Shown here piece by piece: positions 29,168 to 61,483 of a stretch of 64,000 nucleotides of DNA; the first letter of the stretch is position 1, and each line of letters opens with the position of its first letter. The position numbers and the translations under genes were made by a program. The DNA lies in the NCBI GenBank assembly GCA_947588655.1, contig CANPYS010000004.1:3947-67946 (forward strand), written 5' to 3'. Source of the DNA: an uncultured Alphaproteobacteria bacterium. GTDB taxonomy: Bacteria > Pseudomonadota > Alphaproteobacteria > RF32 > CAG-239. Under the pieces are notes generated by a model that saw only the letters and a program-made list of their open reading frames with translations, was not told the DNA's origin and made no database searches.

Positions 29168-30789
29168 TGAAAAGAACTTATATTTTATCCTTTTTATTAT
29201 GTATACTTTTGATGATAGCATCAAATGATATTTGGGCACCCAAGAAAGTAACATTGACCTTTCAGGCTAAAACAAATCAGGACTTTTCTTTACAAACATC
29301 TTTTAATGATTCCTGTTTCAAAAATGAAAGCAATACAACCCTTATCCCATTGGAGGGGGGGGGGAATGAAGTTAAAGTAAAGATTTATGCAAGCAAAATC
29401 AACAGATTGTGCTTAAAAATCATACATCCTATTGATGAAATAACACTTTCTAATTTCAAGCTATCTGGAAAGAAAAATTTAGTTTTTATTAGCTTTGATT
29501 CTTTTAATATTGAAGGCTCTGCAAAGGTACAGGACGACAACAATTTTATCACAATCGCGCCTTCGCCGACAGATGCTTTCATCACAATCAACAATATTTC
29601 TTTCAAAGGAAAACACTCTTTTAACATTCACTTTTTTTTAATTTTAGCTTTTATTTATTTTTTGATTTCATATAAAATTGTTCAATATCTATCGGTTTTT
29701 AAAATTAAAGATTCTTCTTCGCGCATAGACATTGTTTTTGTGGCTGTTTTTTATGTTTTAATTTTTCTGCCAATGAGCAACATCTCCACAGAAGCAAATT
29801 CAATACAAGAAAACAGAAACTTAGCTCAAAAGCCAAGTTTGACAGACCTTTATAAATCAGATAAATATGGCAAAAATTTTGAACTTTGGTTTAATGATCA
29901 TTTTTACTTACGGAAAGATTTTGTAAAATTATACGAATTTTTAAATGATCCGTTATTTTTAAAAGGCAATAAACGTGTTTTAATTGGCAAAGATAATTGG
30001 CTTTTTTATAAAGCTGATAAGAGCGAAAGAAATTTTGCAAATCTGGATTTATTTTCACAAGAAGAACTTAAAAATTTAGCGACTTATTTGAAAAATATTC
30101 AGCAATGGACAAAGAAAAACGGCAAAAGTTTTTATTATTTAATCTGTCCGGATAAAAACAAAATTTACGGCGAATTTTATCAATTTCACGAAAAAGTTTA
30201 TCCCGATTCTCAAAGTCGTGCGCAACAAGTGGTTAATTATTTAAGAGAAAATACAGACATTGAAGTGATTTACCCCTATGATGCATTGCATCAAGCCAAA
30301 TCGCAAGGCTTACTTTATTATAAAAATGATACGCATTGGAACCTTTTTGGCGCTTACATAGCCTATCAGGAGCTTATGAAAAGTATTAAGAAAAAACACA
30401 AGCTCAAAATTTTTAAATATAGCAAATTAGATGAAGAAAAACATCCTTTGGGTGACTTGTCCAAAATGTTTTCTACACCTAAAGAGGACAATGAAACGAC
30501 TTATCTTGTCCCTTCGGTTCAAGATTTATCAAAATGCACCGGCGAAGAGAAAGAAATAAATTGCATTAATCACTTAGGAAAGTTACGAGTCTTTATGCTA
30601 AGAGATTCTTTTACAGATTTTTTAAAACCTTATTTGAATAATACTTTCAAATTTGTTGATTACAACTGGCGCTACAATATTACGAGATCTGACTTAAAAA
30701 AGATAAAAAACAACGCCGATATCATTATTTTAGAACAAGTTGAACGCCTTGTTCCAACATTAACTACGCTTAAATTCCCGAAAGAATAG
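29167..30789 (+). CDS. AlgJ/AlgX-like (DHHW/SGNH) O-acetyltransferase partner, G10 in frame
   Basis: ENRNLAQKP, VLIGKDNWLFY, ICPDKNKIY, DTHWNLFGAY, RDSF; adjacent to an MBOAT gene. Confidence 0.8.
   Translation: MKRTYILSFLLCILLMIASNDIWAPKKVTLTFQAKTNQDFSLQTSFNDSCFKNESNTTLIPLEGGGNEVKVKIYASKINRLCLKIIHPIDEITLSNFKLSGKKNLVFISFDSFNIEGSAKVQDDNNFITIAPSPTDAFITINNISFKGKHSFNIHFFLILAFIYFLISYKIVQYLSVFKIKDSSSRIDIVFVAVFYVLIFLPMSNISTEANSIQENRNLAQKPSLTDLYKSDKYGKNFELWFNDHFYLRKDFVKLYEFLNDPLFLKGNKRVLIGKDNWLFYKADKSERNFANLDLFSQEELKNLATYLKNIQQWTKKNGKSFYYLICPDKNKIYGEFYQFHEKVYPDSQSRAQQVVNYLRENTDIEVIYPYDALHQAKSQGLLYYKNDTHWNLFGAYIAYQELMKSIKKKHKLKIFKYSKLDEEKHPLGDLSKMFSTPKEDNETTYLVPSVQDLSKCTGEEKEINCINHLGKLRVFMLRDSFTDFLKPYLNNTFKFVDYNWRYNITRSDLKKIKNNADIIILEQVERLVPTLTTLKFPKE
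29355..29364 (+). repeat. G10 tract, in frame (LEGGGNE)
   Basis: ttggaGGGGGGGGGGaat. Confidence 0.9.
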
Positions 30790-30792
30790 AAC

Positions 30793-32196
30793 ATGCTTTT
30801 TTCATCTACAACATTTATTTTCTTATTTTTGCCGATTGTCAGCGCGACTTATCTTTTAGCCCGCAAAGAAATCAGAAACAATCTCTTGCTTTTGGCGAGT
30901 TTATTTTTCTATGCTTGGGGAGAACCGCGATATTTGCTAATTATGTTACTTACCATTTTAATCAATTATGTCGGCGCAAATTACATCAGCCGAAGCAAAA
31001 ATGACCAGCATCGCAAAATTCTTTTAGTTTTATCCATTATAGCTGATTTAGGTTGTTTGTTTTACTTCAAATATTTTAACTTTTTTATTGAGAATTTGAA
31101 TAACATAACTCATTTAAATTTGCATTTTATAGATGTTGTGATGCCGATTGGCATTTCGTTTTACACCTTCCAAGCCATGTCGTACTTGATTGACGTTTAC
31201 AGATGTGATGTTAAAGCGCAAAAAAGCATTTACAATTTGGCGCTTTATATCACGCTTTTTCCACAGCTGATTGCCGGCCCGATTGTTAAATATCATGACG
31301 TTGAAGAACAAATATCAAACCGCGACAGCACTTTTGAAAAAGTTTCTTACGGTATTAAGCGGTTTATTATCGGGCTTTCCAAAAAGATGATTATCGCAAA
31401 TACTTTAGGCGTTGTTGCAGACCAGATTTTTTCTGCGCCCGCCCAATCTTTAGACACACCAACAGCTTGGCTCGGGGCAATAACATATAGTTTACAACTG
31501 TTTTATGATTTCAGCGGTTATTCTGATATGGCTATCGGTTTAGGCTCAATATTCGGTTTCAAATTTCTGGAAAACTTTAATTATCCGTATATATCTAAAT
31601 CTATAACCGAATTTTGGCGGCGTTGGCATATTTCACTTTCAACATGGTTCAAGGAATATCTTTATATACCTTTGGGTGGCAATCGCGTTTCCAAAAACCG
31701 AACCTATCTAAATTTGCTGATTGTCTTTTTAGCAACAGGTTTTTGGCATGGCGCCGCATGGAATTTTATTGTTTGGGGCTTATGGCACGGTTTTTTCATT
31801 GTTTTGGAAAAAATAACCGGTTGGCATAAAATGGAAACAAAAAACATTTTTCATCTTTGCCTTAAACACCTTTACGCCTCTTTCGTTTTTATCATTGGTT
31901 GGGTAATGTTCCGCGCTGAAAATATGACATATGCCTTTCATTACATTCAAAATATGTTTGGCTTAACAAAAATAGCAAAATTACAACACATAAACGGCTT
32001 AGATGTGCAATCAGGCGTGGTTTTAGTGGTTGCTCTTGTCTGCGCCACGCCGATTTTTCATAAAATGTTGGACATTCCTTACAAGCACAAAATTTTAAGA
32101 AGCCTTGTCAACATTTGGCTGATGTTTCTTTTTATTATCAGCCTCTCCATCATCGCCAACGCAACCTACAACCCATTTATTTACTTTAGGTTTTAA
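30793..32196 (+). CDS. MBOAT O-acyltransferase (AlgI/DltB-like)
   Basis: MLFSS..F, PIGISFYTFQ, FPQLIAGPIVKY, DFSGYSDMAIG, FWRRWHISLS, GFWHGAAWNF. Confidence 0.93.
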   Translation: MLFSSTTFIFLFLPIVSATYLLARKEIRNNLLLLASLFFYAWGEPRYLLIMLLTILINYVGANYISRSKNDQHRKILLVLSIIADLGCLFYFKYFNFFIENLNNITHLNLHFIDVVMPIGISFYTFQAMSYLIDVYRCDVKAQKSIYNLALYITLFPQLIAGPIVKYHDVEEQISNRDSTFEKVSYGIKRFIIGLSKKMIIANTLGVVADQIFSAPAQSLDTPTAWLGAITYSLQLFYDFSGYSDMAIGLGSIFGFKFLENFNYPYISKSITEFWRRWHISLSTWFKEYLYIPLGGNRVSKNRTYLNLLIVFLATGFWHGAAWNFIVWGLWHGFFIVLEKITGWHKMETKNIFHLCLKHLYASFVFIIGWVMFRAENMTYAFHYIQNMFGLTKIAKLQHINGLDVQSGVVLVVALVCATPIFHKMLDIPYKHKILRSLVNIWLMFLFIISLSIIANATYNPFIYFRF

Positions 32197-32197
32197 A

Positions 32198-33603
32198 TTA
32201 ATTTTTAAATCTAATTCTAATTCCTAAAAATTTAATTGTTGTTTTGGTCTTATCTTTTTGAAAATCAAAAAATTTTGCTAATTTTTGTTTTCTCTTAATA
32301 ATTTTAAATTTTTGAATATAAAACTCATTTATAAGTTTGGCCGCAGATAAAAAAGAATATCTATTCATCATATCTTTAGCATTAGAAAAAGCATTATTGC
32401 GAATATTTTGAATTTGATTCACACAATACGCCCGGACTTCCTCTTCTTCTGCAGGATCAAATATGATGCCATTAACTTTGTTTTTTATAATATTTTGCAT
32501 TGTTTCGTTATGAAGAGATGTTATAACAAAACAGCCACAAGCTATAGATAAAACGGCATCTTTTTCATGAGAACATATAACAACATCATACAGGTTTAAA
32601 TTTTGGCGTAACTCATCAACGGTATGAGAAAGTTCTTTTAATTCTTCAAATTTGCCTATTTTTAATTTCTCAACTCTTTGATGCATGTAATAAAATGAAC
32701 AGGGATCGTATAAATAATCTAAAAAAGGAATTTCTTTTTTGCTTAGATCATGGGTATAGCTCCCCCCCCCATTGAAGAATTGTTTATATAAAACAAATAT
32801 TTATCAGAAAGCTGATTAACAATATTTAAAGCAATATTATATTCTTCTTGATTATTGGAGATGAGATTCACTTGTTTTTTATAGTTTTGGTAGCAATCGG
32901 AAACAAAATCAACGTAATAATATTTTTTCATTGTGTCTAATAAAGTCATTTTAAACCGCGAAATACTGTTACATTCACCAGAATCGGGTTGAATAGATAC
33001 ACCGCCCATATCATAGGTTTTGTAGCCCAATTCCTTAAATTTTAAAAAATCTTTATAATGTAGTAACCGATTTAAACGACCAATCATATTTTTAACTTCA
33101 GGCTCTAGATGTCTAAAACTTGAAATAGAACACATCATGCGAACACTTTTATTATCCGGATTAATTTGATGAGCATGGTAAATTTTATAATTTGGATAAT
33201 CAGAAGAATAAATAGAAGAAAAAACTAAAATTTTATGCTTTTTCCATAAATTAACACCTTTTTCAACACCTCCGATAACACTTCGCATAATATCAGAATC
33301 CTTATCTTCGGCGAATTCTTTGAATTTCACTAAAAATTCTTCAATCAACTTTTGATCAGGGTTTTCAATAAACTCAATTATAGGATTATCCTTTTTTATA
33401 CATTGATTTATATGGTGCTTTGCTGAGCTTTGAAAGCCTTTAAATATAACATCTTCATCTTTATCTAGATTTAAAAAAACGGTATACTGTGGTTCACATC
33501 GTGAAATACCAACCGGACAAACTAAACGTGTGTATCTAATATTTAAAGGTGTTTTTTCATCAAATAATTCAAGTTTATTGTCATCTATAATCTGCATCTT
33601 CAA
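32198..33603 (-). CDS. FemAB-like GNAT fused to GT-like C-domain, frameshifted at G9; ~468 aa if rejoined
   Basis: G10 gives ...SSMGGGSYTHDLSKKEIPFLDYLYDPCSFYY-MHQRVEK, joining ORFs 32743..33603 and 32198..32686. GYKTYDMGG and RFK motifs. Confidence 0.7.
32762..32770 (-). repeat. G9 tract, out of frame (G10 restores)
   Basis: + strand tCCCCCCCCCatt. Confidence 0.9.
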
Positions 33604-33621
33604 ACCTCCTGTTTAGATTAA

Positions 33622-34047
33622 TTAGCCTATATAGGAAAGAATAACTTTTCTATCTCTAATTGGATCAAGTTCCACCAAATAAACCGATTGCCACTTTCCT
33701 AAAATGAGTTTTCCATTTTCTACAGGTATTACTTCTGATGTGGGCAAAAATAATTGTCTCAAATGAGCATGAGCATTTATTCGCTCATTTACAGGAACAT
33801 CTCTGATTTCAATTTTATCATGCATGTAATTTCCATTTTTTGGAATTAACGTATCAAGAAAATTATTTATATCAGCAAGAAGTAAAGTTTCTCCTTCTAT
33901 AATTTTTACGGCGCAAGTTGTATGCAAGGTAAAAACATTTACAAGACCAATACCTTTTTTATTTTTAATAAAATCTTCTATTAAATCATTTAATTTTGTA
34001 AATTGTTTTTCTGTTTTAATTATTATTTCTTTCATTTCATTATGCAT
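33622..34047 (-). CDS. YjbQ/UPF0047-family protein
   Basis: VFTLHTTCA, NAHAHLR, LGKWQSVYLVELD. Confidence 0.85.
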   Translation of the reverse strand: MHNEMKEIIIKTEKQFTKLNDLIEDFIKNKKGIGLVNVFTLHTTCAVKIIEGETLLLADINNFLDTLIPKNGNYMHDKIEIRDVPVNERINAHAHLRQLFLPTSEVIPVENGKLILGKWQSVYLVELDPIRDRKVILSYIG

Positions 34048-34657
34048 GGATATACTCCCTTATATTGTCAATATTTATATCTAGATTCGCACCTTTAGGA
34101 TATTCGTTTTCAATAGCCTTTTTCACAACAATTGCAAAATCGTCAACTTTCATAAGTGAATTTGGATTTTCATTTGGATACATAGATTTTCTCATTTTAG
34201 TTAAAGTTCTTCCTGGAGAGAGGCAAATTGCATCTACACCTTCTTCTGCCCAACATTTTGTTGCCATAATAACGGCAGCTTTTGTAGCACAATACGAGCT
34301 CCAATTTGCATGTATTTTAGTTCCTGCAGATGAACCAATATTTATAATTTTTGCTTTTGGATTAATTTTTAACAATGCACCTGTACAGGCAAATACTCCT
34401 GTTAAATTTACATCTATAATATTTTTATGTTTATTTATGTTATTATTTGCTATACCATCAATTAAGATTGCACCTGCATTATTGATTAATATGTCAGGCT
34501 TTTCTTTCATCATATACGACTTTACTTTATCAATATCAGTAACGTCTAACTCTTCTTTGCTTGGCAAAAGAACTTTGTACTGTAAATTTTTCTCTAATAT
34601 TCTAGCAATAGCTTTGGCTATATCTCCATTGCCACCAGTAATTAACACCTTTATCAT
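34040..34657 (-). CDS. Short-chain dehydrogenase/reductase
   Basis: ITGGNGDIA, LINNAG, YCATK. Confidence 0.9.
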   Translation of the reverse strand: MIKVLITGGNGDIAKAIARILEKNLQYKVLLPSKEELDVTDIDKVKSYMMKEKPDILINNAGAILIDGIANNNINKHKNIIDVNLTGVFACTGALLKINPKAKIINIGSSAGTKIHANWSSYCATKAAVIMATKCWAEEGVDAICLSPGRTLTKMRKSMYPNENPNSLMKVDDFAIVVKKAIENEYPKGANLDINIDNIREYIHA

Positions 34658-35274
34658 ATTATATTATCCTCTATCATTTTATAAATGTTTTCTATAACTG
34701 GTAAATCTTTTTTATAAGTCAATTTTACCAAGTTTTCTCCACCTAAAAAAAACTCAGGTTTAATCCCATAGGTTTCATACATTAATCGTGTTTCATCAGT
34801 CATATCCCAATCAATATTCTTATTATAAGCATCATAAAGTAGTTGAAAATCAAAACATTGTGGCGTTAGTAAATCGTAATATTCATTTCTGTTACAATAA
34901 GTACCATCACGTTTAATTATTGTATTTACAAGTGGCATAATATATGTAGATGACTTTTGGGTATTTTTAAGCAAAAATTCAATTTGTTCAGTACGAACTA
35001 GAGGTCTTGCCACCTCCAAAATAATTACTTTTTTATAATCTCTATTTTTTATTTTAAAATAGTTAAGTCCATTTATAACGGAATAAGAACGAGTTTTACC
35101 CCCTTCTACATCAACGCCAACGACTACAATGTTTTCTTTTGGCAAAATTTTTAAAGCTTTATCATAAACGTGCTCCCATAATGCTTTTCCCATAAATTTT
35201 ATGAATTGTTTTTTTTCTTGAAATCTAGTACCTTTACCCCCCCCCAAGATAACAGCTATATTATTTTCCATCAA
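34654..35274 (-). CDS. IspD/TarI-family cytidylyltransferase, G9 in frame
   Basis: ILGGGKGTRF, KQF, GGKTRSYSV, EVARPL, TPQCF, MTDET, KLTYKKDL. Confidence 0.85.
   Translation of the reverse strand: MMENNIAVILGGGKGTRFQEKKQFIKFMGKALWEHVYDKALKILPKENIVVVGVDVEGGKTRSYSVINGLNYFKIKNRDYKKVIILEVARPLVRTEQIEFLLKNTQKSSTYIMPLVNTIIKRDGTYCNRNEYYDLLTPQCFDFQLLYDAYNKNIDWDMTDETRLMYETYGIKPEFFLGGENLVKLTYKKDLPVIENIYKMIEDNII
35237..35245 (-). repeat. G9 tract, in frame (LGGGK)
   Basis: tttaCCCCCCCCCaag. Confidence 0.9.
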
Positions 35275-36681
35275 TCAACTCTCCATTCAAATATTTTATA
35301 ATTGTTTTTGATGCATGAGGATAATTATATTTGACAAAACTGTAGCGGAATTTGTCCCGTTTTTCTTTCAAGATATCATTACCCTTTAACACAACATTTT
35401 CTATGTAATTAATGATATCTTTTTCATTATAAGCCTTATAATAACAATCTAAACAACCCTTACCAAAAGTTCCAAAATACTCATTAATTACCTTTTTATC
35501 TCTTAGTGAATAACAAGCCGGATTTTCTGTATAAAGATACTCCGGTAAAAATGACCCACAGTCATGAATGATGCCGTCTGAATCCACAAAAGTTTGATAA
35601 TAGTTTGAACTTGTATCATAGACACAGTTTTCAAAAGAATCCATTTTCTGATAATATTCTTTTGTTTTTTCCTCACCCCAATATTTATCTTGAATAAGTG
35701 TATAATATAAAAGTGGATGTGGTCTAAATATAAAATCAATTTGAGGATATTTCTGAGGCAACGACAAATACAAATCGCTAAACTTTAAAAATTGCCCTTG
35801 CAAACCTATTCCATGGATTGAATGATGTGGAGCAATAATAACTTTTTTACGTTTGTGCTTTGTTTTAACTAAGCCCTCAAAAGCATCGGCCTTAGGATAA
35901 CCAGAAACAAAAGCATTTTTTCCATGAATAGGTTGTCTTTCTTTTAAATCTTCTAAATTTAATTCATTTTCCACAAAAGCAATCCAACACATATTATAAG
36001 TGTCTGAAAGGATGGACTTATCTTTTGCAGAAGAATAAGCATAACTAACATAACAAGCCAAGACGCCTTGACGAATTATATTATATATTTTGTAGGGTTT
36101 ATATTCTATATTTTCATCATTTGAGGGAACAAAAACGATGTCAAAACACTTGTTATAATCCGCAATTTTAATACCCCCCCCATAGTAATTTTTTCAAGTC
36201 CTTGATAAACTTTTATTTTATGCGCATATTTTTCCAAAACTGCTTGTAAGGTTTTATGATATAACTCAATTTCCTTTTCCGGAGTGTGTACCAAGCTTGG
36301 AACGACAACAACCGACACTTCAAAACTTGGATTCGCAATCATTTTTAACAATACCGCTTCAGCCGTCCAAGATTCCAAAGCGTGCATAATAAACCCAACT
36401 CTTATCTTTTGACCATTTTTAACTTTCGTTCTCAGTCTATTAAGAATTTTTGGATAAGTTTTTTGTATTTTTTCATAATCAGAAACACTAAAATACATCT
36501 TAAAATTGCCGGCAAAGAACAATTTCCATTTTAGTGGCATAATCAAGCTTAAAAGATACAAACACCTATCGCAAAGCTTTTCATAACCACAATATAATTT
36601 TTTGCGAGCCGTTTTTCTCCACGAACTTTTCGGAATAAAACAGCATAAAATTTTTATAATATATTTCATCACATTTACCAC
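35261..36681 (-). CDS. CDP-glycerol/alditol glycerophosphotransferase (TagF-like), frameshifted at G8; ~473 aa if rejoined
   Basis: G9 gives ...EKITMGGGIKIADYNKCFDIVFVP...RQGVLACYVSYAY, joining ORFs 36106..36681 and 35261..36061. SGYPKAD, IAPHHS, FRPHPLL, DCGSFLPEYL motifs. Confidence 0.8.
36174..36181 (-). repeat. G8 tract, out of frame (G9 restores)
   Basis: ataCCCCCCCCatag. Confidence 0.9.
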
Positions 36682-36689
36682 AGTTTCAG

Positions 36690-37541: not shown

Positions 37542-37547
37542 AAATAA

Positions 37548-39951: not shown

Positions 39952-40077
39952 TTATAAGTCTCCTAAAGTTTGACTATTAGTTTTTCAAACAGAACCGAAA
40001 ATTATCAGCATATTTAGTCATCCCCAAAATGCCCTTTTATCCACAGAAACCAAAACTTTCCACGCATTTCCCGGTAC

Positions 40078-40188
40078 TTGCAAAAAAACGTACCTTTTTT
40101 TTCAATATTTTTTAAGTTTTCAACAGCTTGAATTCTCTTGAGTTTTTTTCTTGATTTATTATGAAAAAAAAGGTACGTTTTTTTGCAA
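40078..40188. promoter_or_regulatory. Inverted-repeat-flanked promoter, candidate invertible element 2
   Basis: 27-bp perfect IR (40078-40104 / 40162-40188) with 57-bp spacer; TTGATT (40151-40156) lies 17 bp from TACGTT (40174-40179); sits between divergent genes. Confidence 0.6.
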
Positions 40189-40207
40189 CATTGCAGGAGA
40201 AAACTGA

Positions 40208-49515: not shown

Positions 49516-49534
49516 TTATTTTCTCCATATTCAC

Positions 49535-50275: not shown

Positions 50276-50332
50276 GGAGAACCTCCCGACGAACTGAACT
50301 TATTTTATGAAATTTCGGGTTGTTTAAAACAC

Positions 50333-50368
50333 AGAAGAATCCGCTTTGAGCAAAAAGCGGATTCTTCT
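50333..50368 (-). terminator. 15-bp-stem hairpin between transketolase and SDR genes
   Basis: agaagaatccgcttt-gagcaa-aaagcggattcttct. Confidence 0.6.
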
Positions 50369-50388
50369 CTTGCTTTAATCTTATAAGG

Positions 50389-52174: not shown

Positions 52175-52235
52175 GATCTCCATTAGTGCATAAAAAGCAG
52201 GTGTTCCTTCTTCTATTATGAAACCCGCTCGTATC

Positions 52236-54123: not shown

Positions 54124-54857
54124 TTTGTATAATTAACGACATAATTTTGCCCAGTAATCCATTGGGCTTCATCTGATAATAAGAAAGAAACAACATTAGC
54201 CACATCTTGCGGCTTTCCAAGGCCTAAGGGATATTTATATTTGATTAAGTCCATGATTTCAGGAATATTTTGCGTCATGGGTGTATCAATATCACCTGGC
54301 GATACTGTATTAAACCGGATTTCTTCAGCAGCATATTCTTTGGCAATAGCCTGCATTGAAGCAACCAATGCCGCCTTAGATCCACCGTAAGAAATTAAGC
54401 CTTTCGCCGCATTTTGGTAGGCTATGGAAGAAACAGAAACAAAACTTGAACCTTTGCCGGCATGAACGCCTTTCTGTACAAAGCCTTTAGCCATCATCAA
54501 CGGAACAAAGAAATTAATGTCAAAAATCTTTTTTGTTTCTGAAAAATTTACAGCACGCAAAGGCAAAGTTTCGGTTATGCCCGCACTGCAAACAACCCCG
54601 AACAACGCTCCATATTTTTGACTTAACTGTTCCATATACTTCGGTAAAGATGCCATATCTTCTGTTAAATCCTTTTGCTCAAAAAACAATCGCTCAGGCG
54701 CTTCTAACTTTTTGATAAGCGCATCAAAAGCCTCTTTATTCCTACCAATACCAACAACTACCCCCCCCCGAGCATTTATATCTATAGCAACAGCTTCACC
54801 TATGCCGGAAGTTGCACCCGTTACAACAAAAACCTGATTTGAATTAAACTGAACCAT
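54117..54857 (-). CDS. SDR oxidoreductase, G9 in frame
   Basis: VTGATSGIG, YGGSK, FNTVSPG; start taken at MVQF (54857). Confidence 0.88.
   Translation of the reverse strand: MVQFNSNQVFVVTGATSGIGEAVAIDINARGGVVVGIGRNKEAFDALIKKLEAPERLFFEQKDLTEDMASLPKYMEQLSQKYGALFGVVCSAGITETLPLRAVNFSETKKIFDINFFVPLMMAKGFVQKGVHAGKGSSFVSVSSIAYQNAAKGLISYGGSKAALVASMQAIAKEYAAEEIRFNTVSPGDIDTPMTQNIPEIMDLIKYKYPLGLGKPQDVANVVSFLLSDEAQWITGQNYVVNYTNC
54761..54769 (-). repeat. G9 tract, in frame (ARGGV)
   Basis: actaCCCCCCCCCgag. Confidence 0.9.
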
Positions 54858-54874
54858 TTTTATTCCCCTCTCTT

Positions 54875-55606
54875 TTAGAACGCACCGCAATCTATAATAT
54901 AATTTTGCTTTGTTATCCATTTTGCTTTGTCAGAAAGCAAAAAGACAACCATATTTGCAACATCATCAACATGCCCAATCCCGAAAGGATATTTCCCTTC
55001 GGCATATTGTTTTTCAAGCTCGCCTGCCATGGCCGTTTCAATTAAGCTTGGCGAAACACAATTTACGCGCAACCCCGTAGAAGACAATTCATCTGCAACA
55101 GCATGCATGGAATTAATAAGCGCGGCTTTTGTTCCCGCATAGCATGACTGCCCAGGAGTAGGATGGACACCTGCAATAGAAGCAATACATACAACAGAAG
55201 CATTTGGTTGATGGTTTCTTTTATCTGCAAGACCTTTGAGCATAAATATCGGCGCAAAATAATTAATGTTAAACATTGCTTGATAGGCCTCATAATTTGC
55301 AAGACGCAAGGGCTCTAAGACACCTGCTCCCGCACAAAAAGCCATGCCCTGAAATTTACCGTATTTCTCTCTTAAGGCCTTAACATAAGCCGGTAACTCT
55401 TCAATATCCTCCGTTAAATCTTTATGTTCAATATAAATATTTTCAGGAATTTCTGCTTTTTCTCTCAACTCATGAAGTTTATTTTCACGACGCGCAACCG
55501 CCACCACACTCGCCCCAAGTTTATTCAGAAGCAAGGCAACCGCTTCGCCTATACCTGAGCTTGCGCCTGTCACGATAAATATTTGAGATTTATCAAATTG
55601 TATCAT
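54875..55606 (-). CDS. SDR oxidoreductase
   Basis: VTGASSGIG, YAGTK, RVNCVSPS. Confidence 0.9.
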   Translation of the reverse strand: MIQFDKSQIFIVTGASSGIGEAVALLLNKLGASVVAVARRENKLHELREKAEIPENIYIEHKDLTEDIEELPAYVKALREKYGKFQGMAFCAGAGVLEPLRLANYEAYQAMFNINYFAPIFMLKGLADKRNHQPNASVVCIASIAGVHPTPGQSCYAGTKAALINSMHAVADELSSTGLRVNCVSPSLIETAMAGELEKQYAEGKYPFGIGHVDDVANMVVFLLSDKAKWITKQNYIIDCGAF

Positions 55607-56027
55607 TTTCTTTTTTTAACTCCACCAATTCAATGATCATAGAATTGCGGAAGGCAAGATAACACCAATTTACAATATCGCAGTTTTTATCATCTAAGTG
55701 AGTCATCGGCACAAGGTACATACCTTTGTTTTCAGCAATCAAACGCTCGGCATCATTTACGATATCATCACTGACATAAGCAAAATGATAAATTTTACGT
55801 CGGGCTTGAAGGTGCGCCGTTATAGGCCCATCTGCTGACAAATTAGCGACTAATTCTAAATCAGGACTTACCCCCCCCCGCGTATTTTTCAAAAAGCACA
55901 CACGTATGCCCGTTTGAGGTTCTTCGCGAATGCCTCCTAAAGGACTATAACCAAAGCAAGAAAAGAATTGGACATCTTTTTCAATGCTTTTGGATGCAAT
56001 GCCAATATGATGTAACCCTTTAAGCAT
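55593..56027 (-). CDS. VOC-family protein (methylmalonyl-CoA epimerase-like), G9 in frame
   Basis: LHHIGIA, LELV, IYHFAY, IIELVE; start taken at MLKGLHH. Confidence 0.8.
   Translation of the reverse strand: MLKGLHHIGIASKSIEKDVQFFSCFGYSPLGGIREEPQTGIRVCFLKNTRGGVSPDLELVANLSADGPITAHLQARRKIYHFAYVSDDIVNDAERLIAENKGMYLVPMTHLDDKNCDIVNWCYLAFRNSMIIELVELKKENDTI
55871..55879 (-). repeat. G9 tract, in frame (TRGGV)
   Basis: cttaCCCCCCCCCgcg. Confidence 0.9.
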
Positions 56028-56028
56028 C

Positions 56029-56247
56029 TTATAAACCCGCTTTCTTGGCAATATCACCAATGGTCTTCATGTCTTTATAGTCTTTCATGGTTGTTTTTAC
56101 ACCAAATTCTTTATCCAAAAACGCCATTGTCGCCATAATAGATAATGAATCCCATTCGGCCAAATCTGCCAAAACAGTATCAAAGCTGATTTCTTCTTCT
56201 GTTTGCAAAACTTCAACCATTTCAGTTAAAAATTCATCTTTAGTCAT
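56029..56247 (-). CDS. Acyl carrier protein
   Basis: EWDSLSIM motif; acidic, 72 aa. Confidence 0.9.
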   Translation of the reverse strand: MTKDEFLTEMVEVLQTEEEISFDTVLADLAEWDSLSIMATMAFLDKEFGVKTTMKDYKDMKTIGDIAKKAGL

Positions 56248-57378
56248 TTTTCTTCTCCTTTAAAAGATTTAATCCAATTGTTAATTTGTTCTTCTCTTGT
56301 TGGGCGATTCGCAGGAGGTACATAAGTTGATATACCTCCATTATATAAACCTCGCAGATTTATTGCTCCCCCCCCCCCAAGATAATCCTACACCAAACCC
56401 ACATAGAATGGTATTTCCCCAAGTTTTACCCTGAGGTTGATCACATAAAAGCGTAGCTAGCGAATTTGTTGAATTATTAGCATATTTCGTAAAAACATCT
56501 GTCGGCGCTTTTTGCACAGAAACACCTGCACTGCTAACAATATTCTCTACAATTTGCTTATTTGCCTGATGTATGGCATATAAATCAACATCGGCATCTG
56601 TCCATCCGGCAAGAGCCAACGTCTGCTTTATTGTTTGCGGGGCGACATCCATCGTGAATCTAAAAACATCTTCTCCCTTTATAATTCTATCTGATGCAGC
56701 ACGCCAAGAAAATGGGCCATCTTGAAGTATCAGATTCAAAATATCCACATCTAACGGCAAACGCGCACCGCCAAAAGGACAAATAATTTTATCAAACCCA
56801 CTCCCGTCTGTTCCTACCACAAAAAAAGATTTATACACATCTGATGAATATTCTAAAATTGTGGCGGAAGCAGCATCGCCAAAAACACGGGCATCTTTTG
56901 CTTGCGCCGAGCCTGTTCTGGAGGGAATATCCCCTGCCAAAAGGAGGCACTTTTTTCCAAGCCCAACCTCTAATAATGCATGCGCCACTAAAAGCGCTTG
57001 CATATAACCTGAACAGCCAGAATTTATATCAAGCGCAAAACACTCTTTTTTTAACCCCAACATACCATGAGCAACACTAGCATTATTAGGCTCCTTATAA
57101 TCAGGCTTTTGACTTACAAAAACAAGTAAATCAATTTCTTCGGTGCTGATACCCATTTCATGCATAAGCTTCTTGGCAGCATCTGTAGCCATATCCGTTA
57201 CAGTTGTTAAATCGTCCGCAATATAGCGACGCCCATAACCAACCATCTTTTTAGCACGAGCTAACTTTTTAGGGTTATTATCAAAAAATTCAAGCTCATC
57301 TTCCACATTTATCATATGTTGCGGTATAACTGTCTTTATACCACTAACCTTAACATGATTAAAAGATGTCGTTGTCAT
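56244..57378 (-). CDS. FabH/KAS III-like synthase (paralog 2), frameshifted at G11; ~377 aa if rejoined
   Basis: NSGCSG, FGDAASA, IHQANK, GFGVGLSW. G10 adds GGGAINLRG...REEQINNWIKSFKGEEK-stop, which parallels the paralog 1 tail and overlaps the ACP start (ATGA). Confidence 0.88.
56368..56378 (-). repeat. G11 tract, out of frame (G10 restores)
   Basis: gctCCCCCCCCCCCaag. Confidence 0.9.
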
Positions 57379-57452
57379 TTTTTCTCCTGTAAATTCAATT
57401 TTAACAACACTTAAACGCTTCTCCTATGACCGAATTAAGTAGTATTATTTTT

Positions 57453-58085
57453 TCAAACTTTCCGAGCAGGATTTCCTATCATATAGCAATTATTTTTACA
57501 ACCTTTGTAAACAGCCGATAGGGGTGCAATCTTATTATTATCACCAATGGCACTATGTGGCAAAAGAACTGAAGATGTCCCAATAGAATTCATATTTCCT
57601 ATTTTAACGCCCCCTAACATATGTGAGTTTGGTCCGAAAAAATTAAAATCACCAACTTCAACATCATGACCTAGTCCAACATGACCATTAAACAAATTGG
57701 CACAACCGATTTTAACTTCTGATGAAACAACACAATTTATAGTAAAAATGTTTGCTTCGCCAATTTCACTGTGCGGAAATATAATAACAGAAGGATCTAT
57801 GACTGTAAAAAACTTAATACCCTTAGATTTCAAATATTTATAAATTCTCTCTCTAATTTCTGGATAGCCAGAGCCTATAACAGCATAATCATTTTCCTTA
57901 AACTGAAAATCAGCAACATCACAAATCCATTGGGACGAAAAATCTTTCAAATCCGCCTTATAGCCACCTTCTCCTAGGAAACCCGCAAAATGTATATCTT
58001 TATCATATTCAGCCATACGCTGAATATAAGAATAACATTCCCGAGCAAATCCATTTCCGCCAACAATATAAATATTTTTCATCAT
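57453..58085 (-). CDS. NeuD/PglD/PerB-like hexapeptide acyltransferase
   Basis: IYIVGGNGFARE, FFTVIDPS, GHDVEVGDF, GNPARKV; start taken at 58085, next to the restored per stop. Confidence 0.88.
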   Translation of the reverse strand: MMKNIYIVGGNGFARECYSYIQRMAEYDKDIHFAGFLGEGGYKADLKDFSSQWICDVADFQFKENDYAVIGSGYPEIRERIYKYLKSKGIKFFTVIDPSVIIFPHSEIGEANIFTINCVVSSEVKIGCANLFNGHVGLGHDVEVGDFNFFGPNSHMLGGVKIGNMNSIGTSSVLLPHSAIGDNNKIAPLSAVYKGCKNNCYMIGNPARKV

Positions 58086-58086
58086 A

Positions 58087-59191
58087 TTACCCTTTTGTTC
58101 CATAATATTGTTTAATTGCAGCACAAATATTTTGAACATCATTATGAGTTAATGCAGGGTAAGATGGAAAATTAATTCCTCTAGAGGCTAAGTTTTCTGC
58201 AACTGGTAAACACTCAAACCGTTTGTTATACACCGGCATTTGGTGTATACATGGAAATGTTGGTCGGGTTTCTATACCCCCCCCCCATTGATTTCAAAGA
58301 TTCTCTTAGGGCTGTTCTATCTTCCTTAGATTCCGCCAGTGCGGATACCATCCAAAATGTGTGAAAAACATCACCAACAGGTTTATGAAAAACAAGAGGC
58401 GTATGCGCTAATTCCTCCATATACCATAGAGCAACCTGACGCTTGGCCGCAATAAACTTTTCAATCTGTTCAAACTGCGCCAGACCAATTGCCCCTTGAA
58501 TGTTTGTCATACGATAATTATACGCCGAAACATCATGCCAATATTCACGCCACGCAACAACACCCTGCCCGTGCAAATGAACAACGCGCTCAAATAATTC
58601 GTCATTGTTACAAACAACCATACCACCTTCACCGGTTGTAATCGTTTTATTTCCAAAAAACGAAAAACAAGCAATATCCCCAAAACTGCCAACTTTTTGA
58701 CCCTTATATTCAGAACCAATTGCTTCTGCACAATCTTCTATCAAAAACAAATTATATTTTTTAGCTAATGCGCACAAAGTATCCATCTCAGCCGGATGGC
58801 CATATAAATGTACGACCATTATAGCCTTGGTTTTAGGAGTAATTTTACGTTCAATATCACTCGGATCCATTTGCCAGCTATCGGGTAAACTATCACAAAA
58901 AACAACTTTACAACCAAGCTGTGCAAACGGATTCGCTGAAGCTATATAAGTAAACGTTGGACAAATAACCTCATCACCTTCACCCAAGCCAAGAGCTGAA
59001 GCCGCCAAATGAATTGCAACCGTACCATTACAGACACCTTTACCATGTTTAACACCTATAAAATTGGTAAAAGCTTTTTCAAAATCAGTCACAAAATGCC
59101 CTTTGCACGAAATCCAACCCGTATCAAGACACTCATCAACATACTTCTTTTCATTTCCAGTTAAACTTGGTTGGTAAACAGGATATTTCAT
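58087..59191 (-). CDS. per: GDP-perosamine synthase (DegT/DnrJ aminotransferase), frameshifted at G10; ~367 aa if rejoined
   Basis: CNGTVAIHLA, EDCAEA, SFFGNKTITTGEGG, YNYRMTNIQGAIG. G9 restores GIETRPTFPCIHQMPVY...LASRGINFPSYP. Confidence 0.88.
58277..58286 (-). repeat. G10 tract, out of frame (G9 restores)
   Basis: ctataCCCCCCCCCCattg. Confidence 0.9.
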
Positions 59192-59210
59192 TTTATCTCC
59201 TTTTTTAATC

Positions 59211-60242
59211 TTATAAAGTTCCTTTATGGGCTCTTTCAATATCAGCTTCAACCATCATTCGAGCCAACCCGGCAAAATCAACTTTCCGCCGCCAACCTAA
59301 AACTTTTTCGGCTTTAGCCGGATTACCAAGCAAAACCTCCACTTCAGCAGGGCGATAAAATTCTGGATTAACCTTAACGATCGTTTTTTCTGTTTTTTTA
59401 TCAATACCGATTTCATGAATGCCTTCACCCTGCCATTCAATTTCAAAGCCAGCTGTTTTGCCTGCTTCTTCAACAAATTCTCTGATAGAGTGTGTTTCAT
59501 TGGTTGCCAAAACATAGGTATCTGATTTTTCCTGTTGCAACATTTGCCACATACCTTCCACATAATCTCCAGCAAAGCCCCAATCACGTTTAGCATTTAA
59601 ATTACCAAGTTCCAAAACTTTATCTGTAAGACCAGTAACCATTTCGGCAAAATGAGCCGTAATTTTACGAGTCACAAATTCTTTGCCTCTCATAGGACTT
59701 TCGTGATTAAATAAAATTCCGGAGCTAACATGCAAGCCAAAACTTTCACGATAATTTGTAACCAACCAATGTGCCATTAACTTTGCGCATCCATAGGGAG
59801 ATCTCGGATAAAAAGGTGTCGTTTCAGACTGAACAGGTTCCTGAATCTTACCAAACATTTCGGATGTTGACGCCTGATAAAAATGTGTATGCGGTGAAAA
59901 TTCCCTAATAGCTTCCAAAATATATAAAACACCCATACCGTCAGCTTGAGCTGTATAAATAGGTTCGCTCCAAGAAGCCGCTACGAAACTTTGCGCTGCT
60001 AAATTATAGAACTCATCAGGTTGATATTTTTTTATTAAACGACAAATATTAGAAAACTCCAAAAGATCAAAATCTTTCATTTCAATTTTATCTAGTATAC
60101 CGTGCTCTTTCAATTTTGAAAAAGTATCTGTGGCACCCCGACGATACAAACCAACCACATGATATCCTTTAGAAAGTAAAAACTTTGCCAAATATCCACC
60201 ATCTTGCCCTGTTATACCAGTAATCATTGCTGTTTTAGTCAT
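59211..60242 (-). CDS. gmd: GDP-mannose 4,6-dehydratase
   Basis: ITGITGQDGGYLA, YNLAAQSFV, YQASTSEMFG, FYPRSPYGCAK, FNHESPMRG, GNLNAKRDWG. Confidence 0.97.
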   Translation of the reverse strand: MTKTAMITGITGQDGGYLAKFLLSKGYHVVGLYRRGATDTFSKLKEHGILDKIEMKDFDLLEFSNICRLIKKYQPDEFYNLAAQSFVAASWSEPIYTAQADGMGVLYILEAIREFSPHTHFYQASTSEMFGKIQEPVQSETTPFYPRSPYGCAKLMAHWLVTNYRESFGLHVSSGILFNHESPMRGKEFVTRKITAHFAEMVTGLTDKVLELGNLNAKRDWGFAGDYVEGMWQMLQQEKSDTYVLATNETHSIREFVEEAGKTAGFEIEWQGEGIHEIGIDKKTEKTIVKVNPEFYRPAEVEVLLGNPAKAEKVLGWRRKVDFAGLARMMVEADIERAHKGTL

Positions 60243-61483
60243 TTCATCATCTCCTTTATTATTAGATTAGCAGTTTTTTGCCAAGAAAATTGCTTCGCTC
60301 TTTCCATGCCCTTGGCCGCATTGGCATCGCGTAAATCTTTATTAAAATAATATTCTTCATAAGCTTTAATGTGTTGCTCATCTGAATCCCAATCTATCAT
60401 AATGCCCGCATTTCCAACAACTTCGGGCAAAGATGAATTATTTGAAGTAATAACGGGACATCCGCACTGCATAGCCTCTAATGGCGGCAAACCAAACCCC
60501 TCGTACTGCGAAGTATAAACAAACCATTCGGCACCACTATAAAGAGTAGCCAAATCAGCATCATCAACATAGCCAACTTTTTTAATCAATCCGTCAGGAA
60601 TATATTTTATTTCCCCCTCTAGTTTGGTTAAAAATGTATTCCAGTGCCCCCCCCCAAGGACAAAAATCAAATCTGTTATTTTATTTTTTTCAATAAATTG
60701 AACAAAAGTTTTAACAGCACGTATCAAATTTTTACGTGGCTCAAGCGTACAAAGACTGAAAACATATTTTTTATCTGTTGGTATATTATATTTTTCACAT
60801 ACAGCCATTAATCTTTGCTTATCTGTTTCATGGTAAAAACTTTCAGAAGCCGCAAGAGGTGTTACCTTAATTTGCTTATCCGTTAGCACCGGAAAATATC
60901 TCAAAAAATCAGCTTTTGTATTTTCCGAAATTGAAAAATAATAATCATCCTTATTAAAAGAACTCACTATATCGTTAAATGCACGAAGAATGCTTGAATC
61001 AAAATAAGTAGGATAAAGATATGGAGTCGCGTCATATAAAAACAAAAATTTCTTTTTTACCTTAAAGCTTTTAGGTGAAAAAAACGACGATAAATACAAA
61101 TCAAAGACTTTGTCTAAATCATAACTTTTTCTAAATGAATTAAGTTTCTTTAAAATACCTAAATAGATGACTGACAAAAACTTTTTTAAATATTGTTTTC
61201 TTTCTTTAAAAAACTTTATTTTTTCATAAATATCACCTATCTTACATTCTCTAGGAGTTAGTGGAGGATAAAAGATAACATCCTGCCCTAATTCCTTTTT
61301 TAAAAATTCTTTTAAATATTTTTTCTTTCTCAAAGGAGGTGACGATAAATAAACCTGCAAATGATTATCTTTAATTAATTCCTTTAATATATTTAAAGAT
61401 ACACAGAAAATACCAGAAGTGTTTCCTTTAGAAATACCCAGACATAAAACATCTGTATCAAAAAGGAGTGTTTTTTTATTCAT
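60239..61483 (-). CDS. GT4 glycosyltransferase (mannosyl/perosaminyl-transferase-like), G9 in frame
   Basis: [46 protein letters not shown]. Confidence 0.9.
60647..60655 (-). repeat. G9 tract, in frame (LGGGH)
   Basis: agtgCCCCCCCCCaag. Confidence 0.9.

What the first reader, a model, noticed from the sequence alone, without database searches (positions are those of the whole stretch)
29355..60655. Combinatorial poly-G contingency system across one polysaccharide locus (18 tracts)
Seen: G/C runs of 8-11 nt at 29355, 32762, 35237, 36174, 36771, 37662, 40634, 43524, 45442, 46621, 50402, 52239, 53094, 54761, 55871, 56368, 58277 and 60647. All are inside coding sequence, 16 of 18 are G on the sense strand, and they occur in AT-rich DNA, whereas I saw none in the GC-richer 0.6-29.3 kb. 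Every split gene in the locus breaks exactly at a tract (six: 32762, 36174, 40634, 45442, 56368, 58277). Repair needs +1 in two cases and -1 in four, and long A/T runs do not break housekeeping genes. Established: this is the slipped-strand phase-variation mechanism of Campylobacter, Helicobacter and Neisseria surface loci. Inference: about 15 independent switches could give thousands of glycan states. Core steps (per, TagF-like) and an acyl pathway are switchable as well as side decorations. I am not aware of this being described in this kind of Alphaproteobacterium.
Basis: partly seen in the sequence, partly recalled or inferred. Interest (0 to 1): 0.9.

Follow-up and report, generated by a model that had tools for sequence, protein, structure and literature searches.

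The report
Poly-G switches across a gut bacterium's glycan locus
An uncultured gut alphaproteobacterium has 18 hypermutable G/C runs, one per gene, in half the genes of one surface-sugar locus, and their lengths differ between otherwise identical strains in different samples; this is Campylobacter-style phase variation, at unusual density, in a non-pathogen lineage where I found no report of it.

Summary
There are 18 G/C runs of 8-11 nt at the stated coordinates, plus a 19th at 505. All are in coding sequence, 16 of 18 read G on the sense strand, and each lies in a different gene. In the locus, G/C runs fall off geometrically from 1 to 5 nt, none are 6-7 nt, then 18 are 8-11 nt. About 2.2 Mb of related or homologous DNA holds only eight such runs.

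All six split genes are restored by a 1-nt change in the tract. Full-length family models, full-length homologues or natural ON alleles confirm each.

New evidence comes from independent low-coverage metagenome assemblies of the same strain (99.1-100% identical). Eight of the 16 tracts observable there differ in length. Nine of ten real indels fall in tracts of 9 or more; none fall in 180 A/T-run observations. At least 24 of 48 contig ends lie at tracts.

At two sites the tract is an insertion absent from homologues.

This is slipped-strand contingency variation of a polysaccharide locus. The mechanism is known; the lineage is new and the density is extreme. Caveats:
- Within-sample switching was not shown, because no reads were available.
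- Four 3'-terminal tracts may not act as switches.
- "Thousands of glycan states" overstates the case.

The parts
29167..63089 (.). Surface-polysaccharide biosynthesis and modification locus, about 34 genes, 29-41% GC, downstream of topA. Encodes AlgX-like and MBOAT O-acyltransferases, CDP-ribitol-type IspD plus SDR, a TagF-like protein, 2 methyltransferases, GT8/PIG-L, FkbH-like, 3 GT4/GT1, NeuD/PglB-type acetyltransferase, LuxC/LuxE/AMP-ligase/ACP, 4 SDRs, split transketolase, 2 FabH-like KAS III, glyoxalase-like, sugar aminotransferase, Gmd and a cytidylyltransferase.
   Evidence: Pfam and NCBIfam scans; composition
29355..29364 (+). G10 tract at aa 62 of 540 of the AlgX-like SGNH O-acyltransferase partner (29167-30789). 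ON in the window. VARIABLE: G11 (OFF) in other ENA assemblies, G9 (OFF) in the related species L003.
   Evidence: P0123 ends '...LEGGGE*' and P0124 starts in the shifted frame, exactly as predicted for G11. Two contigs (L101, L102) end inside the tract.
32762..32770 (-). C9 (sense G) tract splitting a 468-aa gene of unknown function (32198-33603). OFF in the window, needs +1. VARIABLE: C10 = ON (466-aa gene call) in L102, ERZ27249206.
35237..35245 (-). C9 tract at aa 9 of 206 of the IspD-like cytidylyltransferase (34654-35274), inside the 'LGGGKGTRF' motif. ON. VARIABLE: C10 = OFF (179-aa call) in L102.
36174..36181 (-). C8 tract splitting a 473-aa TagF-like gene (35261-36681). OFF, needs +1. 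C8 in all 3 other samples seen. The tract is a 4-residue insertion absent from 11 homologues.
36771..36779 (-). C9 tract at aa 254 of 283 of a methyltransferase (36690-37541). All three frames give 282-284 aa with different 26-aa tails, so the effect is uncertain. Invariant in 3 samples.
37662..37670 (-). C9 tract at aa 197 of 237 of a methyltransferase (37548-38261). Longest frame (ON) in the window. VARIABLE: C10 (216-aa call) in L095, ERZ27249221.
40634..40643 (+). G10 tract splitting a 629-aa FkbH-domain/HAD-IIIC protein (40208-42098). OFF, needs -1. VARIABLE: G9 = ON (629-aa call) in L094 (ERZ27059539) and L096 (ERZ27249325).
   Evidence: The FkbH model TIGR01686 matches residues 10-279, across the tract at aa 142.
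43524..43531 (-). G8 (sense C) tract 3 codons before the stop of a GT4/GT1 glycosyltransferase (43518-44783). Probably not a functional switch. Invariant in 5 samples.
45442..45450 (-). C9 tract at aa 10 of a 207-aa NeuD/PglB/VioB-family sugar N-acetyltransferase (44856-45480). OFF, needs -1. VARIABLE: C8 = ON in L098 (ERZ27249106), C7 = OFF in L094.
   Evidence: TIGR03570 matches 1-202 of 202 only in the repaired protein.
46621..46629 (-). G9 (sense C, Pro-Pro-Pro) tract at aa 76 of 429 of the LuxC-like acyl-CoA reductase (45568-46857). ON. Same length in the one other sample seen; contig L093 ends inside it.
50402..50411 (-). C10 tract at aa 329 of 336 of the transketolase C-terminal subunit (50389-51399). 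Changes only the tail, so the effect is uncertain. Not observed intact elsewhere; contig L188 ends in it.
52239..52247 (-). C9 tract encoding the last three Gly of SDR 52236-52973 ('RVDGGG*'), overlapping the 5' end of the transketolase N-subunit ORF. C8 would fuse the two. Effect uncertain. The tract-free paralogue reads GGC GGC at this site.
53094..53102 (-). C9 tract at aa 340 of 385 of FabH-like KAS III no. 1 (52966-54123), in the 'SWGG' motif. ON. Same length in 1 other sample; contig L087 ends 6 nt from it.
54761..54769 (-). C9 tract at aa 50 of 267 of an SDR (54117-54920). ON. Same length in 2 samples.
55871..55879 (-). C9 tract at aa 60 of 155 of a glyoxalase/dioxygenase-fold protein (55593-56060). 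ON. Same length in 2 samples; three contigs end in it.
56368..56378 (-). C11 tract at aa 333 of 377 of FabH-like KAS III no. 2 (56244-57378). OFF (345 aa), needs -1. VARIABLE: C10 = ON in L189 (ERZ27249206); C11 in L190.
   Evidence: PRK12880 matches 3-349 of 353 across the tract in the repaired protein.
58277..58286 (-). C10 tract at aa 321 of 387 of the DegT-family sugar aminotransferase (58090-59251) next to Gmd. OFF, needs -1. VARIABLE: C9 = ON in L084 (ERZ27249317). The tract adds 2 Gly relative to an 80%-identical relative.
60647..60655 (-). C9 tract at aa 276 of 414 of a GT4/GT1 glycosyltransferase (60239-61483). ON. Same length in 1 other sample; contig L086 ends at it.
505..512 (+). 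It reads 490 aa as it stands and 539 aa with C7. There is a weak, sub-threshold PMT_2/GT-C hit. A GT2 glycosyltransferase gene lies about 1.8 kb downstream (3777-4688).

Best explanation
The 18 G/C homopolymers are hypermutable simple-sequence repeats, that is, contingency loci. During replication the run gains or loses a base by slipped-strand mispairing. That shifts the reading frame of the gene carrying it between a full-length (ON) and a truncated (OFF) product. There is one tract per gene in about half the genes of a surface-polysaccharide locus: sugar aminotransferase, N-acetyl and O-acyl transferases, methyltransferases, glycosyltransferases, polyol-phosphate enzymes and a fatty-acid-like side-chain pathway. 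A population of this uncultured gut alphaproteobacterium therefore carries a mixture of glycan genotypes ('phasotypes'). Selection by phage, host immunity or competitors can then pick among them. SHOWN: the tracts exist and are strongly over-represented; they are built from otherwise rare GGG codons and, at two sites, are insertions absent from homologues; single-base changes restore full-length family-matching proteins; lengths differ between independent assemblies of the same strain while all other DNA is essentially identical. INFERRED: the switching rate, reversibility within one population, the change in surface glycan, and the selective agent.
For: (1) Over-representation and a bimodal run-length distribution. 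(2) One tract per gene: 18 tracts in 18 of about 34 genes, P = 0.0015 under length-weighted random placement. (3) Frame logic: all six split genes are repaired by +/-1. The repaired proteins match full-length FkbH, NeuD/PglB/VioB, KAS III and aminotransferase models across the tract, and the sixth matches full-length homologues. (4) Cross-sample polymorphism in 99.1-100% identical backgrounds at 29355, 32762, 35237, 37662, 40634, 45442, 56368 and 58277. L102 has 0 mismatches over 7421 nt, and its only two gaps are in two tracts. (5) Specificity: over the first 105.9 kb of aligned contig DNA, 8 of 9 real indels are in G/C tracts of 9 or more. A/T runs of 7 or more give 0 of 180 observations and G/C runs of 5-7 give 0 of 58; Fisher P = 9e-7. 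One sample (ERZ27249211) agrees with the window at all 9 tracts seen, so the assemblies are not simply noisy. (6) 24 of 48 contig ends lie within 20 nt of a tract, and 5 of 8 further ends do so too. (7) Selection for the tract itself: GGG is 14% of Gly codons outside tracts but 43 of 47 inside. A paralogue reads GGC GGC where the tract-bearing copy reads GGG GGG GGG. The tracts in the TagF-like and aminotransferase genes are insertions relative to homologues. (8) The tract position is conserved in the AlgX-like gene of a species about 90% identical at the DNA level, with a different length. Two further relatives carry C9 tracts in an MBOAT and a FabZ-like gene. (9) Same architecture as C. jejuni CPS/LOS polyG genes (PMC8437040).
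Against: No read-level data, so within-sample length heterogeneity and reversibility are not shown. The comparison contigs are 2-6x short-read consensus sequences in which long G/C homopolymers are error-prone. The A/T control runs are shorter (7-8 nt) than most tracts (9-11 nt). The two 8-nt tracts never varied. Half the observable tracts did not vary in the few samples seen. Four tracts lie at the extreme 3' end and may have no functional effect. No phenotype is known, and the export or polymerisation genes that would define the glycan class are not in the window.
Confidence: 0.85

Rival explanations
1. Sequencing or assembly artefact. The tracts are real, but their true lengths are fixed and in frame. 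The frameshifts and between-assembly differences are homopolymer miscalls in low-coverage consensus sequences.
For: Comparison contigs have only 1.7-6x coverage. Contigs often end at tracts, which poor read quality after G-runs could also cause. Only tracts of 9 or more varied.
Against: About 20% of tract observations differ, against 0 of 180 for A/T runs of 7 or more and 0 of 30 for A/T runs of 8 or more. One sample agrees with the window at all 9 tracts seen. Six of the seven changes at OFF tracts go to the ON length, against the one in two expected from random +/-1 errors. Three diverged strains (99.1-99.4%) carry ON alleles. A different species has the same tract at a different length. The artefact idea also cannot explain why the tracts exist, one per gene, built from rare codons and insertions.
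Confidence: 0.07
2. Locus decay. The polysaccharide locus is degenerating, and the frameshifts are ordinary irreversible pseudogenising mutations that happen to hit homopolymers.
For: Six of about 34 genes are disrupted in the window. The 36174 gene is OFF in all four genomes seen.
Against: ON alleles of 5 of the 6 disrupted genes occur in near-identical genomes. No frameshift in the window's locus lies outside a tract. The only non-tract indel found among the contigs is at 31449 in L101. Decay would erode the tracts, not maintain 18 runs of 8-11 nt with no runs of 6-7. The tract position is conserved across species.
Confidence: 0.05
3. The runs act mainly at the RNA or protein level, through transcriptional slippage, programmed ribosomal frameshifting or flexible poly-Gly linkers. 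DNA length variation is then incidental.
For: Most tracts encode Gly2-3 in loops or Gly-rich motifs. Several 3'-terminal tracts give alternative tails of similar length.
Against: The runs are built from the rare GGG codon although synonymous Gly codons would give the same protein. DNA-level length polymorphism is directly observed. I know of no precedent (own knowledge) for efficient slippage on G9-11 rescuing both +1 and -1 frames.
Confidence: 0.03

Closest known systems
Campylobacter jejuni polyG/C phase-variable genes of the capsule (CPS), LOS and flagellar-glycosylation loci
   Same: G/C homopolymers of about 8-11 nt inside coding sequence in an AT-rich genome, clustered in surface-glycan loci. 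They sit in methyltransferases, glycosyltransferases and sugar-modifying enzymes, give ON/OFF by frameshift, and produce combinatorial 'phasotypes' (PMC8437040).
   Different: Different class (Alphaproteobacteria, not Campylobacterota) and an uncultured gut commensal lineage. The density is much higher: 18 tracts in 34 kb and in half of the genes, against 6 in the NCTC11168 CPS cluster and 29 in that whole genome (PMC8437040). Many tracts lie in the 3' part of genes. A G(n)TA flank is shared by 13 of 19 tracts. Rates and phenotype are unknown.
Bartonella mononucleotide-SSR contingency loci (badE adhesin and others)
   Same: Mononucleotide repeats of 9 or more in coding sequence of an alphaproteobacterium, with ON/OFF frameshifts and conservation between related species (PMC11466379).
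   Different: In Bartonella, A-runs predominate, the repeats concentrate at 5' ends and are spread over the genome, and the demonstrated target is an adhesin. Here the runs are almost only G, clustered in one polysaccharide locus, in a distant order.
Helicobacter pylori, Neisseria and Haemophilus phase-variable LPS/LOS glycosyltransferases (poly-C/G tracts, tetranucleotide repeats)
   Same: Slipped-strand switching of glycan-modifying enzymes that generates antigenic mosaics (own knowledge; review PMC11868660).
   Different: Those have a few scattered genes per genome and are pathogens or obligate mucosal commensals with cultured isolates. Here a whole biosynthetic pathway, including precursor and acyl-chain steps, is switchable.
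Bacteroides invertible-promoter control of capsular polysaccharide loci
   Same: A gut commensal diversifying its surface polysaccharides stochastically (PMC11868660).
   Different: A different mechanism: site-specific inversion of promoters switches whole loci, instead of per-gene frameshifts at repeats.

Membership tests
SSR (homopolymeric G/C) contingency loci / phase-variable genes | Mononucleotide G/C repeat of at least 7-8 nt within a coding sequence or promoter | tested here: met
   18 tracts of 8-11 nt, all in ORFs
SSR (homopolymeric G/C) contingency loci / phase-variable genes | Repeats over-represented relative to composition and to related genomes | tested here: met
   Bimodal run-length distribution. 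Markov nulls give 0.25-1.76 against 18 observed. 3 tracts in 1.49 Mb of relatives, 5 in 741 kb of homologous loci, 0 in 51 kb of syntenic cassettes
SSR (homopolymeric G/C) contingency loci / phase-variable genes | A change in repeat number switches between a full-length and a truncated product | tested here: met
   Clear for about 14 tracts. Repaired proteins match full-length models or homologues. Unclear for 4 tracts at the 3' end
SSR (homopolymeric G/C) contingency loci / phase-variable genes | Repeat-length polymorphism between closely related genomes with otherwise identical flanks | tested here: met
   8 of 16 observable tracts vary among assemblies 99.1-100% identical. Indels are essentially confined to tracts
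SSR (homopolymeric G/C) contingency loci / phase-variable genes | Length heterogeneity within one population, and reversible switching at a high rate | not testable with these tools
   No reads are available. The only indirect sign is that at least 24 of 48 contig ends lie at tracts
SSR (homopolymeric G/C) contingency loci / phase-variable genes | Switching changes a surface or other selectable phenotype | not testable with these tools
   The organism is uncultured. Gene functions point to a surface glycan
Campylobacter/Helicobacter-type genomes with high polyG instability | Absent or reduced MutS/MutL mismatch repair | not tested
   Only 64 kb of the genome is in hand. No MMR gene is in the window, which says nothing about the rest
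GDP-perosamine-type (Gmd + Per) amino-sugar polysaccharide pathway | GDP-mannose 4,6-dehydratase next to a DegT-family aminotransferase and an N-acyl/acetyltransferase | tested here: inconclusive
   Gmd matches PF16363 at 5.6e-126, with DegT adjacent. The aminotransferase's best NCBIfam hits (LegC and PseC families) are below their cut-offs, and there is no Per-specific model hit
TagF / CDP-glycerol glycerophosphotransferase family (PF04464) | Match to the Glyphos_transf profile | tested here: inconclusive
   The repaired 36174 protein has no Pfam hit even at E<=1 and no PDB sequence hit. Several homologues at 35-70% identity carry PF04464, and one is named as a family member

The most novel reading that the evidence does not exclude
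Poly-G contingency switching may be a lineage-wide strategy of the uncultured RF32/Rhodospirillales-like gut Alphaproteobacteria of mammals and birds, not a one-off. The shared G(n)TA flank and the insertion-type origin of the tracts would then reflect a specific process that generates or stabilises tracts, for example an unusual repair or replication background such as loss of MutS/MutL. That would make these commensals the densest known multi-locus phase-variable genomes outside pathogens.
Probability: 0.2. Interest if true: 0.75.

Novelty: new member of a known kind. Interest (0 to 1): 0.55.

Why it matters
A 2025 review of phase variation names, as a major open question, whether genomes with many phase-variable loci are truly restricted to pathogens or whether that is a database bias (PMC11868660). 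Here an uncultured, apparently commensal gut alphaproteobacterium, known only from metagenomes, has more polyG switches in one locus than C. jejuni has in its capsule and LOS clusters together (PMC8437040). The switching is visible directly in public metagenome assemblies. That suggests three things:
- Contingency loci are under-counted in uncultured microbiota.
- Surface-glycan diversification by repeats operates in the gut alongside the Bacteroides invertase systems.
- Such tracts systematically fragment short-read MAGs at exactly these loci (at least 24 of 48 contig ends), so standard MAG catalogues will tend to miss or mis-annotate them as pseudogenes.

It also offers a natural system for following phasotype dynamics in vivo from read data alone.

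Tried and rejected
- tRNA and Rfam scans of the window found nothing.
- The first Markov-null script timed out. In the rerun, the order-5 model gave a mean of 10 tracts, but that model learns the GGGGG-to-G transition from the tracts themselves, so I discarded it as a null.
- Pfam at E<=1, NCBIfam and PDB sequence searches gave no family for the 468-aa (32762) and 421-aa (42110-43375) proteins, and no direct TagF hit for the 36174 protein.
- An exact-protein look-up of the transketolase C subunit found no other contig, so tracts 50402 and 52239 could not be compared between samples.
- The single metagenome scan with the repaired aminotransferase returned one close relative (L107) and otherwise only distant environmental homologues. 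These served as a control set but not for tracing the tracts through the lineage.
- L003 first looked like the same species (99% TopA), but it is only about 90% identical at the DNA level, and 79% further left.
- The 414 vs 418 aa difference in GT1 cluster members is not related to a tract.
- No tandem repeat was found at the window's right end.
- The chicken-gut paper could not be used to source the RF32 placement, because the relevant text lies beyond the part held. The 'RF32' label is therefore my own knowledge; NCBI places the named relative Ca. Scatocola in Rhodospirillales.
- I considered explaining the G(n)TA flank as selection for an immediate stop codon. I rejected that as a full explanation, because 4 of 13 are TAT and 3 cases are on the antisense strand.

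Full report
OBSERVATION. A census of homopolymers finds G/C runs of 8 or more at exactly the 18 coordinates given. Their lengths are 8 (two tracts), 9 (eleven), 10 (four) and 11 (one). There is a 19th at 505-512 and none between 513 and 29354. The tract-rich part has 29-41% GC and the housekeeping flank 41-47%. Within the locus, G/C run counts fall geometrically (7517, 1709, 270, 57 and 6 for lengths 1-5). There are no runs of 6 or 7, and then 18 runs of 8-11. Markov order-1 and order-3 simulations, trained on the locus with its tracts included, give means of 0.25 and 1.76. A/T runs show no such second mode. Every tract lies in an ORF. Sixteen of 18 read G on the sense strand. The 18 tracts occupy 18 different genes out of about 34, with P = 0.0015 under length-weighted random placement.

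ORGANISM AND CONTEXT. TopA (26711-29167) retrieves 80 loci from uncultured gut and rumen Alphaproteobacteria MAGs of rabbit, deer, cattle, human, mouse and chicken, including Ca. Scatocola. NCBI places Ca. Scatocola in Rhodospirillales; the GTDB name 'RF32' is my own knowledge. The left 29 kb is housekeeping: pyrH, frr, uppS, cdsA, rseP, bamA, lpxD, fabZ, plsY, dprA and topA. So this is a diderm with LPS machinery.

The locus from 29.2 to 63.1 kb encodes the following:
- AlgX-like and MBOAT O-acylation proteins;
- an IspD-like cytidylyltransferase plus SDR (CDP-ribitol type);
- two methyltransferases;
- GT8/PIG-L and three GT4/GT1 enzymes;
- an FkbH-domain protein;
- a NeuD/PglB/VioB acetyltransferase;
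- LuxC, LuxE, an AMP-ligase and ACPs;
- four SDRs and a split transketolase;
- two FabH-type KAS III enzymes;
- a glyoxalase-fold protein;
- a DegT aminotransferase next to Gmd;
- a glycerol-phosphate-type cytidylyltransferase.

This looks like a surface-polysaccharide locus (O-antigen or capsule type) with an acylated amino-sugar and polyol-phosphate decorations. No export or polymerase genes lie in the window, so the glycan class is open.

FRAME LOGIC. Changing each tract by +/-1 shows six genes that are out of frame in the window. They are 32762 and 36174 (+1 needed) and 40634, 45442, 56368 and 58277 (-1 needed). The repaired products match full-length models straight across the tract: FkbH TIGR01686, residues 10-279; NeuD/PglB/VioB TIGR03570, 1-202 of 202; KAS III PRK12880, 3-349 of 353; and aminotransferase PseC model, 13-378 of 380. 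The repaired 36174 protein aligns over up to 99% of its length with single 430-470-aa homologues, some carrying PF04464 (TagF family). Eight tracts are in the longest (ON) frame. Four (36771, 43524, 50402, 52239) lie at 90-99% of the gene and alter only a short tail, so they may not be switches.

VARIATION BETWEEN SAMPLES (the key new evidence). Exact-protein look-ups of tract-free neighbours retrieved 31 short contigs, at 1.7-6x coverage. They come from about nine ENA assemblies and four Logan runs and are 97.7-100% identical to the window. Tract lengths read from them:
- 32762: C9 in the window and 3 samples; C10 (ON) in ERZ27249206.
- 35237: C9 (ON); C10 (OFF) in ERZ27249206.
- 37662: C9; C10 in ERZ27249221.
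- 40634: G10 (OFF) in the window and 4 samples; G9 (ON) in ERZ27059539 and ERZ27249325.
- 45442: C9 (OFF); C7 (OFF) in ERZ27059539; C8 (ON) in ERZ27249106.
- 56368: C11 (OFF); C10 (ON) in ERZ27249206.
- 58277: C10 (OFF); C9 (ON) in ERZ27249317.

For 29355, cluster members of the AlgX-like protein include a 52-aa fragment ending '...LEGGGE*' and a 494-aa form that starts in the shifted frame. Both are exactly what G11 predicts. The related species L003 has G9 at the same site, which is also OFF. So 8 of 16 observable tracts vary, and ON alleles exist for 5 of the 6 genes that are OFF here.

CONTROLS.
- Over the first 105.9 kb of aligned contig DNA there are 13 gaps. Eight are in G/C tracts of 9 or more, four are paired alignment artefacts in two diverged strains, and one is elsewhere (31449).
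- No variation was seen in 180 observations of A/T runs of 7 or more, 30 of A/T runs of 8 or more, or 58 of G/C runs of 5-7. Fisher P = 9e-7 against A/T runs of 7 or more.
- L102 has no mismatch in 7421 nt, but two gaps, both in tracts.
- One sample agrees with the window at all 9 tracts seen.
- 24 of 48 contig ends lie within 20 nt of a tract, and 5 of 8 further ends do so too. This fits length mixtures that break assembly graphs, although read-quality loss after G-runs could contribute.

THE TRACTS LOOK SELECTED FOR.
- GGG makes up 14% of Gly codons outside tracts and 43 of 47 inside.
- Two SDR paralogues share a near-identical C-terminus. The tract-free one reads GAT GGC GGC CGT; the other reads GAT GGG GGG GGG TAA.
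- An 80%-identical aminotransferase from another metagenome reads '...QAGIETRP' where the window reads '...SMGGGIETRP'.
- In the TagF-like protein the tract lies in a 4-residue insertion absent from all 11 aligned homologues.
- Syntenic cassettes with the same genes in other AT-rich organisms (51 kb, 25-32% GC) have no G/C run of 7 or more.
- 741 kb of homologous aminotransferase loci has five runs, all exactly 8 nt and mostly in GC-rich DNA.
- 1.49 Mb around topA in relatives has three tracts, all in the same kinds of gene: AlgX-like, MBOAT and FabZ-like.

INTERPRETATION. The best explanation, with confidence 0.85, is classical slipped-strand contingency variation, as in the C. jejuni CPS/LOS polyG genes. 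NCTC11168 has 29 tracts per genome, 6 in the CPS cluster and 2 in LOS (PMC8437040). It is applied here at exceptional density to one polysaccharide locus of an uncultured gut alphaproteobacterium. Mononucleotide-SSR contingency loci are known in one alphaproteobacterial genus, Bartonella (PMC11466379). There they are mainly A-runs at 5' ends and the demonstrated target is an adhesin. My searches found no report for this lineage. The rivals are homopolymer miscalls, locus decay, and RNA- or protein-level roles. They are disfavoured for the reasons given above but cannot be fully excluded without reads.

Many switched genes probably act in shared pathways, so the number of distinct phenotypes should be far smaller.

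UNEXPLAINED. With each tract oriented so the run reads G, 13 of 19 are followed by TA (TAA seven times, TAT four, TAG two). The background after G3-5 runs is 7% (P = 2.5e-11). This holds regardless of codon phase and for the three antisense-G tracts. An immediate out-of-frame stop explains only part of it.

VERDICT. The mechanism is known; the lineage is new and the density extreme. This is a new member of a known kind, of moderate to good interest.

Noticed in passing
window, all 19 tracts (for example 35237, 52239, 55871, 46621): With each tract oriented so the run reads G, 13 of 19 are followed directly by TA (TAA x7, TAT x4, TAG x2). The background after G3-5 runs is 7% (P about 2.5e-11). 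This is independent of codon phase and also true for antisense-G tracts. Cause unknown.
   Followed up: partly
It lies in the 5' end of a multi-pass membrane protein with a weak PMT_2/GT-C hit (E = 0.018, below threshold). A GT2 glycosyltransferase gene lies about 1.8 kb downstream (3777-4688). With C7 the ORF extends from 490 to 539 aa. This suggests a second phase-variable glycan gene elsewhere in the genome.
   Followed up: partly
window 50073-50275 and 52771-52973: Two SDR paralogues share a 203-nt 5' segment at 98% identity, 100% over 191 nt. This points to a recent duplication or gene conversion inside the locus. One short-read contig (L088) ends in the repeat.
   Followed up: partly
window 31449 (MBOAT gene 30793-32196); L101: The only indel between the contigs and the window that is not in a tract. 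It is a 1-nt deletion in L101 (ERZ27249211) that splits the MBOAT gene into 222- and 219-aa calls, and it is not in a homopolymer. Either a real inactivating mutation or an assembly error.
   Followed up: no
L079:1883-1891; L026:21046-21054; L003:12638-12646: The only three G/C runs of 8 or more in 1.49 Mb of related MAG DNA all sit in polysaccharide or acyl-modification genes. One is an MBOAT gene split by C9, one a FabZ-like hotdog protein (C9, in frame), and one the AlgX-like gene (G9, out of frame). This hints that the habit is wider in the lineage.
   Followed up: partly
L192:4327-12238; L196:1516-14125: Other AT-rich organisms of unknown identity (25-32% GC) carry a syntenic cassette without any G/C tract. 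It comprises an aminotransferase, a PglD-like protein, a 419-424-aa unknown, GT8/PIG-L, the TagF-like protein, a cytidylyltransferase and a roughly 500-aa unknown. The cassette appears to be horizontally shared.
   Followed up: partly
window 29355-60655; contigs L083-L106 and L187-L191: Short-read metagenome contigs of this strain break at the tracts: 24 of 48 ends lie within 20 nt of a tract, and 5 of 8 further ends do so too. MAG catalogues built from such data will tend to fragment or lose this kind of locus.
   Followed up: yes
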